From Eledone cirrhosa (taxonomy: Eukaryota), in the NCBI GenBank assembly GCA_964016885.1, contig OZ024750.1:2914001-2978000 (forward strand): a stretch of DNA of 64,000 bases, in the 5' to 3' direction. Positions 5,131-60,632 of the stretch are shown in pieces (the first letter of the stretch is position 1; every line of letters begins with the position of its first letter). Below the pieces are notes generated by a model. It had not been told where the DNA came from and did no database searches. It saw only the letters and a list, made by a program, of their open reading frames with translations. The position numbers were made by a program, and so were the translations under genes.

Positions 5131-5374
5131 TATTTAATTAGAAAGTGAACAACACAAACTATAACTACTCCATTACCAAAGGTTTCTGGATCACAGACAA
5201 TAATAATGAACGTCTGGATCAGTCGTCAGACAGAGATGTTATAGATAAAAGATATCTTTTATCTATAACATCTCTGTCTGACGACTGATCCAGGCATATT
5301 ATTATTGTCTGTGATCCAGAAACCTTTGGTAATGGAGTAGTTATAGTTTGTGTTGTTCACTTTCTAATTAAATA
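5131..5374. mobile_element. Spacerless palindromic element (about 122-bp arms) beside (TA)n
   Basis: arms are reverse complements around GATATC at 5251-5256; hammerhead motif in each arm. Confidence 0.8.
5272..5337 (+). ncRNA. Type-I hammerhead ribozyme motif (mirror copy on minus strand 5168-5235)
   Basis: ctctgt-CTGACGA-stem II-GAAA-CC ttt GG-TA-atggag; helix I and III pair; base of helix II is imperfect. Confidence 0.65.
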
Positions 5375-6532
5375 TATATATATATATATATATATATATA
5401 TATATATATATGCCAGCACTATATATTGTGATAATTTCCAAGCATAATAAGTCTACAGACTAGTTTTAATTCTATGACTTGATCCTGTGAGTTTGGCTGC
5501 AGCCATGAGGCTCTGCTGGGCTGACTTGTCTTAAACACATTACATATACTTTTACATATTCCAGCTGACAGGCTGAGGTCATACTGGGGCACCACCATTG
5601 ACAAAATATACAAAATTATAAAACAATTCCTTTCAAAATTATCTCTAACAAACATTTTTTTTCTTTATTAAAGAATAATTTAAAGATATCTTGGGAAACT
5701 TGAAAGCATAATTAGTCGAATGAGGATAACGAAGAGAAAATATATAATTACACAATGAATCTAGTGTAATGGATGTTTTGAAAGCTATATTTCAACAGAA
5801 TAATGCTATCTATTAAAATATAGATAACATTGATATTAATAATAAATACAAATGTTTTATATAAATAAACTATTTACCAATATTAGGACATATCTTTTTA
5901 AAAGCAAAATCTATTTCTAAACAAGAGAAGAGCTCTTTTACTCTTTTACCTGTTCCAGCCATCCGCCTGAGGCCATGCTGGGGCACCGTACTTAGTTTTA
6001 TTTGAGAAAATCTATGACATCAATGACTTTACATTCATCTTTATTCATTTATTTTAAATTTACCAGACTTTAATAATTAGAGATTAAAAATAATAATAAT
6101 AAAAAACTTTCTCCCACTTGATAGCAGGTGCGGAGGAGGGCTTTTTATGATGGTCTTTGTAGCTTGGAGACCAGAGGGTCACTCCAGGTAGAGCTGCTAC
6201 TTCTCTGAATTGAGAGATCATAGCTCTGATATTATGGACTTCAGGAAAGAATCGCTGGATAGATTTTATGGGCAAAACCAACTGGCAGGAGACCCAGGGG
6301 TAGACTCCGAGTAAGATGGTTGGAGAACATCTATGAGCTTGACTGGTCTTGTTTGAGGATCCAGCTGGATCAGTTGGAGATGGTTGCTTCTGACAGGACC
6401 CACTGGAAGGAATGGTTGAAGACTCTGCTCCCATGACAAACAGGATTAAGTGGGAGAAGAAGATTTTCAGTTTGAAAAATACTATTATATCACTATATAG
6501 GCACAGACATGGTTGGAGTTTGTTTTACAACC

Positions 6533-7156
6533 ATGTGGTTCCAGAGTCTGTATCAATACATGACACACGTGATTCCAGAGTCTACTACTACATGACATGT
6601 GATTCCAGAGTCTACCCCTACATGACATGTGGTTCCAGAGTCTACTACTACATGACATGTGATTCCAGAGTCTACCACTACATGACACATGGTTCCAGAG
6701 TCTACCACTACATGACATGGTTCCAGAGTCTACCCCTACATGACATGTGATTCCAGAGTCTACCCCTACATGACATGTGATTCCAGAGTCTACCCCTACA
6801 TGACATGTGATTCCAGAGTCTACCCCTACATGACATGTGATTCCAGAGTCTACCACTACATGACATGTGATTCCAGAGTCTACCACTACATGACATGTGA
6901 TTCCAGAGTCTACCACTACATGGCATGTGATTCCAGAGTCTACCACTACATGACACATGGTTCCAGAGTCTACCACTACATTACACATGTGGTTCCAGAG
7001 TCTACCACTACATGACACATGGTTCCAGAGTCTACCACTACATGACACGTGATTCCGGAGTCTACCACTACATGACACATGGTTCCAGAGTCTACCACTA
7101 CATGACACATGTGGTTCCAGAGTCTACCACTACATGACACATGTGGTTCCAGAGTC
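6533..7156. repeat. About 30-bp minisatellite, about 20 units, inside a SINE
   Basis: (gattccagagtctaccactacatgacatgt)n. Confidence 0.95.
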
Positions 7157-10100
7157 AGTATCATGGCACTCTGGGTAAGTGTCTTTTATAACCTCAGGTT
7201 GACCAATGCCTTGTGAATGAAATTTGGACGGCAACTGTTTCATATGTTTAAAATCCTCAGGACATTCCTGATAATTTCAAATGAATGAAACAGTTCTAGT
7301 CCTGTAGAAGTTCTTTCTCTTTGAATTAAACAGTATCTGTGTATATACATATACACATATATATCATCATCATCATCGTTTAACGTCCATTTTCCACGCT
7401 AGCATGGGTTTGGACGGGAATTGTCCCACTTGAGGCAATATTGGTTGTCTTGCTCGTATAGGACTGTCTGGCGGGTTTTCTACAGCTGGATGCCCTTCCT
7501 AACACCAACCACGTTTACAGTGCGGACTGGGAGGTTTTTTACCATGTTACCTACACCTATATGTCTGTGTATATACATATACACCTATATATCTGTGTAT
7601 ATACATATACACATATATACAAATGTGTGTCTATATGTGTGTCTGTATCTGCGTACATACATATACATATGTGTGTGTCTATATCTGTATATATACATGT
7701 CTGTATCTGTATACATACATACATACACACATATATATATATATATATACGTGTGTGTCTATATATATACATACGTGTGTGTGTATATATACATACATGT
7801 GTATCCGTGCCTGTGTTTATATCTATATATGTCTGTGCTTATGTGTTGTAACTTAACAGTTTAACAAAGAAAGAGATCAATAAAATATGTGGCAGACTTG
7901 AAACAAATAAATAACGATATCAATACAATCAACTAAATCCCTTTAAGGCGGTGCCTGAGCATGCCTGCAGTCTAATGAATGACTGAAACCAGAAAAGGAA
8001 TAAAAGAACGAAAGAATAAATAATGAATTCTTACAAGACCAAACATTTGTAAAGTCAATTAAACTGAACAGAATACATGTCATTTATTTTATTGACCTGG
8101 GGAAGATGAAAACAAAATCGATTCTGGCAGGATCTGAACTAAAATAATTAAAGAGATGTAACTATATTGGGCAAGATATTTATTTTGGCAGTATCATTTC
8201 TGCCGACCACTGCTCTTCTAAATGAATAAATATTAGCACCATTGCTGTTAAAATGTTCTTTAGTTTGACAAGATGGCTTCAATGGATTTGTATATTCAAC
8301 AAAAGTGCAAAAAACAAACTAAGTCTTGATGAAATTTAACAGTCGTGATATTAGGAATATAACTAATTTTATAAAATAAAATAAAAATGTATGGAATGTG
8401 ACTATTTAATTAAAACTGTATAATTAAATGTTAAAGTAAGCACCAACCATCATCCGAATTTCATAGGAATATTAAGATCAATGCAAATATAAAAGTTACT
8501 TGAATTTATAAATCTTGTTGAAGTTTTTTTTTTTAGTTTTAGTTTATATTTTGTTACCAATAAAACATTTGTCAGTTGTTATAACTGACATACCTCATAT
8601 GAAGGATCTTGATATTTTCTGGTATTAAAAACAACAACAAACAAACTGAAAAAAGTTCATAAGTGGACTATGAAGAAGTGATGCTAGAGCTGTGAAATCT
8701 TACATGCATTAATTTCCATTCTTTTTATTAATAACTACATTGTTTCTTTCTAGGGACTATGTTAACAAAATAAACCTCATATGGTCATTCCATGAGAGTA
8801 TCTTGGTCAGTCTATGACGGTGCTTGGTTTAATTAAAATTCTTCTGAATAGATAGTTACAAGAAACAAGTTAGATTGGATATTTCTTGTTTGTAGCCATA
8901 ATACATGGATTTCTTTGTTGGTGTTGAGTTCCATTTAACAATAGAACAACAAAGGAGAAAACTAAGAGGGGAGTTGGTTTCTTTTAGCACAAGTAGTTCC
9001 ACTTGTTTTTTACTTGCATGTGTATGGCAATGTATATATGTGTAGTCTTTTATTCATAAGACTGTGGCCATGCATCGGCACTGTTTTGAAGGTATTTAGT
9101 TGATCACATTGAACCCATTACTTCATTGATCTCTTTTTGTCAAACTACTAAGTTATGGAACCTAAACACACACACACACACAATACAACAGGTTTCTACA
9201 TAGTTTCTGACTACCAAATTTCATGTTCAAAGTATTGGTCAATCCAAAGCTATAATAGTAGAAGACACATGCCTGATGTACCATGCAATGGGACTGAACC
9301 TGAGTGAGTTTAGTCAATTATCTAAAATAATTTGAATTATGAAATTAATTTTTTGAAACTCGCCAAACCATGAAAGATAATTAATATTCAATGATTTACA
9401 AATTAGTTAATTAGCTAACAAATTACCGGAATACACATTATAGGTGCGTGTTATATTAAAGAAATAATCTGACTTTATTGATAGTGTAAATAGAAGAGTT
9501 AATACAATAGTTTGAAATTGAATCAACAATTACTGAACAATGATGACATTTGCAATGATAAAGAGGAAGAAGAAGAAGAAGAAGAAGAAGAAGAAGAGCA
9601 ATATAAAATTGTTAGCTTGCTTTTACAGAGATTGAACACAACAGGTAATGAAATAACAACAAGGAAATGATATGTAAACAATACAACAGACAAAGTTTAA
9701 AGTAGACAGTGTAGTGAATTGGCTTTAATTAAGAAACACAGACAATAAAGGTAACGGTTGAAATAGCAACAGAAGAAAGAGTATTTCTGCAGCTGCAGGA
9801 ATATATCTACCAATAAATGCTCTATTGTAAACTAGCACATATTAACAAGTTGATGAAATGTATAGTGACTCATACAGGTTAGAAGCATGGTAGTTGGCGT
9901 AATTTTTTATTTATTATTTATTTATTTAAGGTTGTTAAACTATTTCAAGCCAGTTCTTATTTCAAGCAGACCTTTGATCAAATTAATACTCCCTCTTTTT
10001 AACACCATAGGCTGTGATTTAAGGTTGATTTGGCTGCTATTGTAAATAAGGTGATAACTACAAAAAGGATCTTTTGATTGTTTTGGTTTTTTAAAACATA

Positions 10101-59971: not shown

Positions 59972-60368
59972 TAAATGAAAGTATGTATGTATACGTACAT
60001 ACATATATGTATACAGACGTACAGTAGTATGTATATATATACATATATGCACACATATATATAAGGAAAGTATATACTTTCAGACGTTCAACCATCTGGC
60101 AGGAAGGTATACGATCCCGACGATAGCTAATAAGCTTGAAACTAGTACATCGTTCCTGTGTCAGTGTTGAACAAAAAGGTGACGTGGTTGCCTAAACACT
60201 GTACGGCGTAATTTGGGCTGTTTGTTTGTTCACAAACAAACAAACCGAGCATTATAATAAATGTTCAGTAAACCGATACGTGCATATATATATGTGTGTA
60301 TGTATATATATACATACTACTGTACGTCTGTATACATATATGTATGTACGTATACATACTTACATTTA
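59972..60368. mobile_element. Element with about 70-bp terminal inverted repeats and an internal hammerhead-like motif
   Basis: 59972-60043 inverts 60301-60368 (gtatacagacgtacagtagtatg). Confidence 0.6.
60099..60159 (+). ncRNA. Variant hammerhead-like motif (CCGACGA core)
   Basis: gcaggaa..acgatc-CCGACGA-tAGCTaataAGCTt-GAAA-CTAG-TA-catcgttcctgt; extended helix I, palindromic helix III, U4 replaced by C. Confidence 0.5.
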
Positions 60369-60383
60369 TATATATATATATAC

Positions 60384-60632
60384 ATTAAAATACAAATATT
60401 AATAAAATAGATGTTCTTTTGATCAATTAAATTTTATTATACATATTTCTGAGGTACGTCCTCATCAGACAAAATACTACCTTGATTAAATCTTAACCAT
60501 TTAACATCTCAGGGTATGTCATGTATCATTATATTTTGTCTGATGAGGACGTACTGTCGTACCTCCGAAATATGTATAATAAAATTTAATTGATCAAAAG
60601 AACATCTATTTTATTAATATTTATATTTTAAT
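60384..60632. mobile_element. Inverted-repeat element (93-101-bp arms, 55-nt spacer) with hammerhead motifs
   Basis: 60384-60476 is the reverse complement of 60532-60632 apart from an 8-nt indel and a few substitutions. Confidence 0.8.
60533..60585 (+). ncRNA. Minimal type-I hammerhead ribozyme motif (damaged mirror copy on minus strand 60431-60475)
   Basis: attttgt-CTGATGA-GGACGTAC tgtc GTACCTCC-GAAA-TATGTA-TA-ataaaat; 7-bp helix I, near-palindromic helix III. Confidence 0.75.

What the first reader, a model, noticed from the sequence alone, without database searches (positions are those of the whole stretch)
5131..60632. Family of small palindromic, (TA)n-associated elements carrying head-to-head hammerhead ribozymes
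Seen: four inverted-repeat elements with unrelated primary sequence (5131-5374, 30503-30832, 59435-59550, 60384-60632) all abut (TA)n tracts. Three carry a full CTGANGA-helix II-GAAA-helix III-UH-helix I layout; the fourth has only the 3' half. Known: minimal type-I hammerheads with palindromic helix III occur in LTRs of Penelope-like retroelements and in retrozymes, and Penelope insertions often carry inverted LTRs. Inference: these are non-autonomous, microsatellite-targeting ribozyme retroelements from several families. Because the ribozymes point outward from the centre, a read-through transcript from either strand makes the antisense arm first, which should trap the ribozyme in dsRNA. That would be a self-neutralising design that lets self-cleaving RNAs sit in introns of an essential gene, and it also creates long ADAR substrates.
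Basis: partly seen in the sequence, partly recalled or inferred. Interest (0 to 1): 0.85.

Follow-up and report, generated by a model that had tools for sequence, protein, structure and literature searches.

The report
Two-armed Penelope retroelement stubs with hammerheads
The four hairpin-shaped repeats are short, head-to-head end fragments of four protein-coding Penelope-like jumping genes that land in TA microsatellites, a known insertion pattern, and they are likely built anew at each landing by copying one RNA from two fixed start points, not a self-silencing ribozyme design.

Summary
The palindromes, their (TA)n context and the type-I hammerhead motifs are real. Each belongs to a family with hundreds to over a thousand copies. 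Each family is the pseudo-LTR end of a protein-coding Penelope-like element with Hydra-clade motifs; one parent has an intact 717-aa RT/GIY-YIG ORF in a 3,528-bp tandem array.

In 194 of 203 two-armed insertions one arm has the short end and the other the tailed end. This matches the two RT start sites shown in vitro for another Penelope-like element. Arm 5' ends pile up at an initiator-like site in three families and not at the ribozyme cut site.

The self-neutralising design is unsupported. Only 12 of 120 tail-selected insertions keep two complete hammerheads. A subfamily with a broken core spread. An unshielded sense hammerhead lies in the host dystrophin gene.

Opposite-strand hammerhead pairs, inverted pLTRs, tails and (TA)n targeting are all in print. 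This scan found the same pattern before on other DNA. Cleavage, expression and editing are untested.

The parts
5068..5255 (-). E1 tailed (L) arm: Hydra-type PLE pseudo-LTR end, with 62-nt tail at 5068-5130
   Evidence: family parents at L194 and L303/L312
5252..5374 (+). E1 short (S) arm, ending at (TA)n 5373-5410; 4-nt overlap with the L arm
5168..5235 (-). E1 hammerhead motif, sense to the dystrophin pre-mRNA; extra C after A9; predicted cut between 5174 and 5173
5272..5337 (+). E1 hammerhead motif; predicted cut after 5331
30405..30665 (-). E2 tailed (L) arm with tail at 30405-30502; hammerhead core intact, insertion in helix II
30666..30832 (+). E2 short (S) arm; hammerhead 30690-30776, predicted cut after 30772; starts at an initiator-like site
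   Evidence: parent ORF end upstream in L010, L016, L022, L026, L030
59357..59491 (-). E3 tailed (L) arm with tail at 59357-59434; only the 3' half of a U3-A8 hammerhead
59491..59550 (+). E3 short (S) arm, starting at the family's 5' stop hot spot inside loop II
   Evidence: parent L187 and L230
60384..60476 (-). E4 short (S) arm; hammerhead with a deletion in helix II (likely defective)
60476..60728 (+). E4 tailed (L) arm; hammerhead 60533-60585, predicted cut after 60578; tail 60633-60728
   Evidence: parent L189 and L190
59951..60368 (.).
32601..55633 (-). Span of host-gene rod-domain exons (dystrophin-like spectrin repeats); the insertions lie outside the exons found
   Evidence: EF-hand exons about 95 kb downstream; weak spectrin exon upstream of the window

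Best explanation
Each palindrome is a short, 5'-truncated, head-to-head insertion of the pseudo-LTR end of a protein-coding Hydra-type Penelope-like retroelement, likely made in one integration event in which both nicked strands of a (TA)n target prime reverse transcription, one at the short start point and one at the tailed start point.

Shown here: family membership, coding parents, two fixed 3' ends per family, the one-short-one-tailed rule, (TA)n flanks, variable junctions (microhomology or A/T fill), a pile-up of 5' ends near an initiator-like site in E2, E3 and E4, and no pile-up at the hammerhead cut site.

Inferred: the GIY-YIG endonuclease nicks both strands of the self-complementary target; a protein dimer usually copies one uncleaved RNA twice; many cDNAs run off at an RNA 5' end made by the pLTR promoter; the two cDNAs are joined by end-joining.

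The hammerheads ride along because they lie within about 130 nt of the short start point. Their shielding in read-through transcripts is likely a by-product.
For: Coding parents for all four families. L187 and the C2 array show the same S+L build at 4.7 kb and about 9-10 kb.

L+S in 194 of 203 two-armed insertions. No L partner among 120 tail-selected arms.

The arms share no sequence in 14 of 74 insertions and differ by more than 20 nt at their 5' ends in 39 of 74. A fold-back copy cannot give that.

(TA)3 follows 230 of 265 S ends and 249 of 327 L ends, against 5.4% of random window 14-mers.

5' stops at -9..+12: E2 11 of 14, E3 24 of 32, E4 19 of 29. Stops at the cut site: 4 of 153.

In vitro, an anole PLE nicks and extends both strands, starts at two internal RNA sites that define the tail, is predicted to be a dimer, and does not need hammerhead cleavage (PMC11167929).
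Against: None of 17 ORF-containing E3 copies that cross the 5' hot spot stop there, against 10 of 16 tail-selected arms (counted by hand; Fisher test). A single RNA with one 5' end therefore does not explain both classes, and two RNA pools are needed.

E1 shows no significant stop at its initiator-like site (4 of 12). Some E2 stops at +11 may be subfamily divergence from my reference. The test window was chosen, and a constant background hazard was assumed.

A minority of insertions have arms differing at two or more common alleles (13 of 149 pairs; 3 of these rest on an alignment artefact at the TA edge). L194 has two different 3' UTR types. 'One RNA' is therefore not universal.

No RNA data were available.
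Confidence: 0.8

Rival explanations
1. One reading: dedicated non-autonomous palindromic ribozyme elements whose head-to-head layout was selected to trap the ribozyme in dsRNA, so that they can sit in introns.
For: The geometry holds, and predicted whole-insertion hairpins are very stable (-122 to -266 kcal/mol). In the dystrophin stretch, 3 of 4 sense motifs are fully or partly covered by an inverted arm. Tandem retrozymes are reported as depleted from introns (bioRxiv 10.64898/2026.07.22.740005, abstract and first fifth read). Short E3 subfamilies seldom extend upstream of +1, and a tandem E4 array exists, so non-autonomous templates are plausible.
Against: Arm lengths and junctions differ from copy to copy. 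Both arms have a complete hammerhead in only 12 of 120 tail-selected insertions. E3 stubs have none (0 of 108). An E2 subfamily with U4C and A6U changes spread. One unshielded sense motif is tolerated and there is no strand bias (5 versus 4, small numbers). The same build occurs in kb-long coding insertions.
Confidence: 0.07
2. Fold-back or self-priming: one cDNA, or an antisense RNA, folds on itself and is copied back, as proposed for rotifer PLE inverted repeats. The tail would arise when the intermediate is resolved.
For: Arms of one insertion are more alike than random arms of the family in all four families. Some centres are small palindromes (L118, L143, L148). Proposed in PMC3846280 (passages read).
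Against: 14 of 74 two-armed insertions have arms with no shared sequence. Some pair alleles or 3' UTRs of different subfamilies. A/T fill lies between two arms that stop at the same point (L164, L170, L262).
Confidence: 0.08
3. MITE-like DNA transposons with long terminal inverted repeats that duplicate TA; the hammerhead motifs would be incidental.
For: They are short palindromes flanked by TA, as Tc1/mariner-type MITEs are (own knowledge).
Against: The ends are asymmetric (one-sided tail). Lengths vary at the centre. The arms are continuous with RT/GIY-YIG ORFs. Hammerhead cores are conserved and helix I pairs when not required.
Confidence: 0.01

Closest known systems
Hydra clade of C-terminal-endonuclease Penelope-like elements, including Hydra-1_Obim of Octopus bimaculoides (Craig et al. 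2021, PMC8557442; sections 10 and 11, passages and supplement rows read)
   Same: Single ORF with RW(K/R), DKT, CxCX5C linker, C-terminal GIY-YIG, CxxC and CxH, and no CCHH; canonical hammerheads; (TA)n insertion. By eye the E3 and E1 parent ORFs follow the Hydra-1_Obim sequence motif by motif.
   Different: The E3 unit is 3.5 kb (Hydra elements are 'generally <3 kb') and forms clear pLTR tandems (Hydra-1_Obim is noted as having no pLTR). Tails are 62-100 nt. No formal alignment or tree against the published sequences was run.
Inverted-pLTR insertions of EN+ PLEs with an optional 30-40 bp tail on one end (PMC8557442; Arkhipova et al. 2013, PMC3846280; Schostak et al. 2008, PMC2377424; passages read)
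   Same: Head-to-head 5'-truncated copies, a tail on one arm, microhomology junctions, and an initiator-like motif and transcription start in the pLTR.
   Different: Here most insertions are stubs of 100-450 bp, and the one-short-one-tailed pairing is counted (194 of 203). The 2013 paper favours self-priming on an antisense template, which non-overlapping arms argue against.
Minimal type-I hammerheads of metazoan PLEs (Cervera and de la Pena 2014, PMC4209133; first half read)
   Same: Short palindromic helix III, extra nucleotide after A9 (E1), U3-A8 core (E3 parent), many sequence families per genome. The paper states that dual motifs occur about 100-700 bp apart on opposite strands and that most are related to truncated PLEs.
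   Different: That paper does not analyse tails, start points or (TA)n flanks in the part I read. E3's helix III is long (7 bp).
Poseidon PLE of Anolis in vitro (Frangieh et al. 2024, PMC11167929; first half read)
   Same: Both strands nicked and extended at AT-rich DNA; two internal RT start sites define the tail; predicted dimer; hammerhead cleavage dispensable.
   Different: Different clade; its ORF starts inside the hammerhead, whereas in E3 the ATG lies about 90 nt past the tail. The paper does not link the two sites to the two arms in the part I read.
Non-LTR retrozymes (Cervera and de la Pena 2020, PMC7229834, passages; Li et al. 2026 bioRxiv, abstract and first fifth)
   Same: Type-I hammerheads, derived from PLE pLTRs; one 176-bp four-unit E4 tandem exists (L063).
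   Different: The window elements are inverted pairs, not tandem repeats, so they have no second sense ribozyme to release a circle.

Membership tests
EN+ Penelope-like element | Single ORF with RT and GIY-YIG endonuclease linked to the repeat | tested here: met
   Intact 717-aa ORF for E3; broken RT-EN or EN ends continuous with E1, E2, E4. Pfam is weak: none for the whole ORF, RVT_1 E=0.03 for a part. Atlas look-alikes score 0.96-0.99, and some of those clusters carry GIY-YIG or RVT_1.
EN+ Penelope-like element | Pseudo-LTR from tandem or partial-tandem arrangement | tested here: met
   E3: three-unit array with 3,528-bp period; 17 of 30 ORF copies reach upstream of the pLTR +1 site, 15 of them by more than 300 nt. 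E1: L303 and L312. No 5' pLTR-ORF junction was seen for E2 or E4.
EN+ Penelope-like element | Inverted 5'-truncated copy with a tail at one end | tested here: met
   194 of 203 two-armed insertions are L+S
Hydra clade | RWK-like motif, DKT in place of DKG, CxCX5C linker, no CCHH, CxxC and CxH near the end | tested here: met
   All read by eye in the E3 ORF (RWR variant). Linker and CxxC/CxH also seen in E1, E2 and E4 parents; DKT in the E1 parent.
Hydra clade | Insertion into (TA)n | tested here: met
   230 of 265 S ends and 249 of 327 L ends; E1 tailed ends often abut (CA)n instead (25 of 63)
Hydra clade | Phylogenetic placement with Hydra RTs | not tested
   Reference sequences were seen only in a paper supplement; no tree was built
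Neptune clade (my first guess) | DKG motif, CX2-5CxxC linker, CCHH in the endonuclease | tested here: not met
   E3 ORF has DKT, CxCX5C and no CCHH (against PMC8557442 section 11)
Type-I hammerhead ribozyme | Conserved core with helices I-III | tested here: met
   Core mismatch 1.7%, 1.8% and 0.3% against 5.8%, 6.0% and 4.4% elsewhere in E1, E3, E4; E2 5.3% against 5.1% because of a broken-core subfamily. Helix I paired in 281 of 354 hits when not required, against 2 of 7 in a reversed control.
Type-I hammerhead ribozyme | Rfam RF00163 gathering score | tested here: not met
   Best 17.2 bits against 34; none for E4 and E1. The 45-position model has a short helix II.
Type-I hammerhead ribozyme | Self-cleavage at UH | not testable with these tools
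   Needs an in vitro assay; no pile-up of arm 5' ends at the cut site
Non-LTR retrozyme | Head-to-tail tandem monomers, each with a hammerhead | tested here: not met
   The window elements are inverted pairs; one tandem of family E4 exists elsewhere (L063)
Non-LTR retrozyme | Circular RNA intermediate | not testable with these tools
   No RNA run listed

The most novel reading that the evidence does not exclude
The stubs record the PLE integration reaction. A dimeric RT-endonuclease binds two hairpin boxes on one RNA (an RCTC...GAGY stem follows the start point at 4 of 6 sites checked). It primes one cDNA from each nicked strand of (TA)n, one just before each box. Promoter-initiated linear RNAs give run-off stubs, while multimeric or circular RNAs give full-length partial tandems. 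Stubs that keep the initiator could fire outward from their centre and act as self-renewing non-autonomous templates.
Probability: 0.45. Interest if true: 0.6.

Novelty: new member of a known kind. Interest (0 to 1): 0.3.

Why it matters
As elements they are ordinary: new Hydra-type PLE families in the known inverted-with-tail form. The value is mechanistic. How PLEs make tandem and inverted insertions is named as an open question in PMC8557442. These young, abundant stubs, together with an intact tandem parent, give a counted rule (one short plus one tailed arm), a 5' stop site and a ready protein-RNA pair for an in vitro test. They also seed introns with near-perfect 100-300 bp hairpins, which could be editing substrates; that is untested. 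They should not be annotated as MITEs or microRNA precursors.

Tried and rejected
- Neptune assignment: my first reading; rejected on motifs after a lead from earlier scan notes.
- Rfam: no hammerhead at threshold; the window-wide hits are microsatellite artefacts.
- A search for a C3-G8 core within 30 nt of the E3 half gave 36 heterogeneous junction matches. The real parent core is U3-A8 and lies further upstream.
- The pattern search for the sequence after the E3 tail missed the true continuation; it was found through the ORF.
- Hammerhead-cleaved RNA as template: no pile-up at the cut site.
- An initiator at the 5' hot spot in all four families: not supported for E1.
- The 'reach +1' column was mis-indexed and was not used.
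- Expression and editing: no RNA holder listed; the two runs laid were contigs of unknown kind and say nothing about RNA.
- The protein homolog search for a host exon gave one unnamed fragment. No CH-domain exon was found on C10. PDB searches with two exons and with the PLE ORF were uninformative.
- Single-arm MFE folds are not better than shuffles, except E1 marginally.
- Paper searches with no relevant hit: 'Penelope + pLTR + transcription start + palindrom' 0 papers; 'Penelope + twin priming + inverted' 2 papers, listing only; 'octopus + hammerhead ribozyme' only Craig 2021 relevant; 'Hydra + Penelope-like + non-autonomous + cephalopod' 0 papers. Most subscription papers are not searched, and bioRxiv supplements were closed.
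Full report
OBSERVATION. The window is G000:C10:2914001-2978000 of a 3.0-Gb genome. It is probably an octopus, judged from the likeness of its elements to Hydra-1_Obim and from earlier scan notes; I did not test this further. 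The four palindromes (E1 5131-5374, E2 30503-30832, E3 59435-59550, E4 60384-60632) are confirmed and share no sequence with each other. A type-I hammerhead descriptor finds four cores against 0.23 per shuffled window. The left arms of E2 and E4 are imperfect, and E3 has only the 3' half. Rfam does not call them at threshold.

HOST GENE. Minus-strand exons at 32.6-55.6 kb encode spectrin repeats. One matches dystrophin residues 2147-2203 (E 3.9e-24). Dystrophin-type EF-hand exons lie on the same strand about 95 kb downstream, and a weak spectrin exon lies upstream of the window (E 3.6e-4). E1 and E2 are therefore very likely intronic, and E3 and E4 probably so.

FAMILIES. First-look candidates were 1495 (E1), 2105 (E2), 317 (E3) and 964 (E4); only 40 per search were scored. 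Exact tail motifs occur 351 (E1), 1053 (E2) and 1109 (E4) times, with 0 in the reversed controls. Every family has two fixed 3' ends, short (S) and tailed (L), 62, 100, 80 and 94 nt apart in E1-E4.

PARENTS. E2 continues upstream into a GIY-YIG ORF end in 5 of 30 loci and into RT in L121. E4 does so in L189 and L190, and E1 in L194. L303 and L312 show the E1 tail running on into an ORF start. E3 belongs to a young family (887 candidates, the 40 scored at 98-100% identity) with an intact 717-aa ORF in a three-unit array of period 3,528 bp. Its motifs (RWR, DKT, CxCX5C, YIG, CxxC, CxH, no CCHH) match the Hydra-clade description in PMC8557442 section 11, not Neptune. Profile support is weak; Atlas look-alikes include GIY-YIG and RVT_1 clusters. 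The E3 parent has a complete hammerhead with a U3-A8 core. The window copy lacks the 5' half because it starts inside loop II. No PLE ORF remnant lies in the window itself.

THE TWO-ARM RULE. Across all fetched loci, 194 of 203 two-armed insertions pair an L arm with an S arm. The automatic call gave 4 L+L and 5 S+S; L109 is a real L+L, and several others look like partial alignments or tails with deletions. In samples picked by the tail motif alone (the first 30 by position per family; the E3 pattern also excluded pure-TA flanks), the partner was S in 59, unclear in 20, absent or not detected in 41, and L in 0 of 120. The same build holds for a 4.7-kb insertion (L187) and for the tandem array. 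(TA)3 follows 230 of 265 S ends and 249 of 327 L ends, against 5.4% of random window 14-mers; the S label partly used TA presence, so that figure leans high. Arms share no sequence in 14 of 74 cases and differ by more than 20 nt at the centre in 39 of 74. Arms of one insertion are more alike than random arms, but a few pair alleles or 3' UTRs of different subfamilies, including the window's E2.

5' ENDS. Arms that reach the initiator-like site often stop there: E2 11 of 14, E3 24 of 32, E4 19 of 29, against 5-9% expected. E1 does not (4 of 12). Stops at the hammerhead cut site are at background (0 of 39, 2 of 40, 2 of 40, 0 of 34). Several junctions have A/T fill between two arms that stop at the same point. 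Stubs of the coding E3 subfamily also stop at +1, yet 0 of 17 ORF-containing copies do. I infer two RNA pools: promoter-initiated RNAs that give run-off stubs, and multimeric or circular RNAs that give partial tandems. A transcription start in the pLTR is published for Penelope and Chlamys (PMC2377424 passages; PMC8557442 section 10), and an Inr-like motif for rotifer PLEs (PMC3846280 passages). The test window was chosen, and no RNA data were available.

HAMMERHEADS. Core positions vary less than other positions in E1, E3 and E4, but not in E2, where a subfamily carries U4C (13 of 55 arms) and A6U (11 of 56). It accounts for 6 of the 30 tail-selected E2 loci. Part of these samples were chosen by identity to the query, and 30 E3 loci by a pattern that includes the core. 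In 1.1 Mb of loci, helix I paired in 281 of 354 hits when it was not required, with many different pair types, against 2 of 7 in reversed sequence; hits include repeated copies of the same families. The motifs are thus under selection in active lineages, but an intact core is not needed for spread, in line with PMC11167929.

THE SELF-NEUTRALISING IDEA. The geometry is right and the hairpins are predicted to be stable. But both arms keep a full hammerhead region in only 12 of 120 tail-selected insertions and 33 of 203 overall. In 167.5 kb of the dystrophin gene my descriptor finds 5 antisense and 4 sense motifs (it misses the left arm of E2). Of the sense motifs two are fully shielded, one partly and one not at all. 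A minimal PLE hammerhead showed no cleavage as a monomer and little as a dimer (PMC4209133).

COMPARISON WITH WHAT IS KNOWN. Dual hammerheads on opposite strands 100-700 bp apart, the U3-A8 core and the extra base after A9 are in PMC4209133. Inverted truncated copies, one-sided tails and (TA)n targeting by Hydra elements are in PMC8557442. Two RT start sites and extension of both strands are in PMC11167929. The counted one-short-one-tailed rule and the 5' stop hot spot were not found in my searches, which miss most subscription papers. Earlier reports of this scan describe the same pattern and a similar model on other DNA. They are not independent support; they gave me the Hydra and hairpin-box leads, which I checked.

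VERDICT. Interest 0.3, mainly for the mechanistic record.

Noticed in passing
window 59951-60368: Fifth two-armed insertion of another hammerhead family (core decayed in this copy); many relatives among the fetched loci.
   Followed up: partly
L063 (G000:C27:7480858-7481513): Four head-to-tail 176-bp units of family E4, each with a complete hammerhead, starting near the 5' hot spot: a retrozyme-like array derived from a PLE end.
   Followed up: partly
L230/L231 (G000:C2:51273000-51291000): Three-unit tandem array of the E3 PLE with three intact 717-aa ORFs, ending in an S end and preceded by a short inverted L arm; candidate active source.
   Followed up: yes
L238, L239, L251, L254, L255, L262: E2 subfamily with a broken hammerhead core (U4C, A6U) and its own short end; may be a true non-autonomous lineage.
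   Followed up: partly
all fetched loci (1.1 Mb): At least 15 further hammerhead families occur incidentally, several with U3-A8 cores; different families are often fused or stacked in one TA tract (e.g. L127, L135, L150, L193).
   Followed up: partly
E1 family tailed ends (L294-L323): E1 tailed ends often abut (CA)n rather than (TA)n (25 of 63), while its short ends abut (TA)n; unexplained.
   Followed up: no
G000:C10:2871530, minus strand: Unshielded, intact-looking hammerhead in sense orientation within the dystrophin gene.
   Followed up: partly
window 12648-12972, 27846-28002, 43153-43309, 59588-59916: Dispersed repeat with a tRNA-like head (weak Rfam tRNA matches at 12659-12716 and 27929-27988); probably a tRNA-derived SINE.
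   Followed up: no
window 75-308, 29816-30049, 33461-33934, 35181-35905, 48994-49227, 53814-54047: Another dispersed AT-rich repeat family of about 230 nt whose end forms local tandem arrays (periods 72 and about 57 nt).
   Followed up: no
L086 1579-2804, L231: PLE ORFs of other clades (DKG motif) lie beside the stubs, so several PLE clades coexist in this genome.
   Followed up: no
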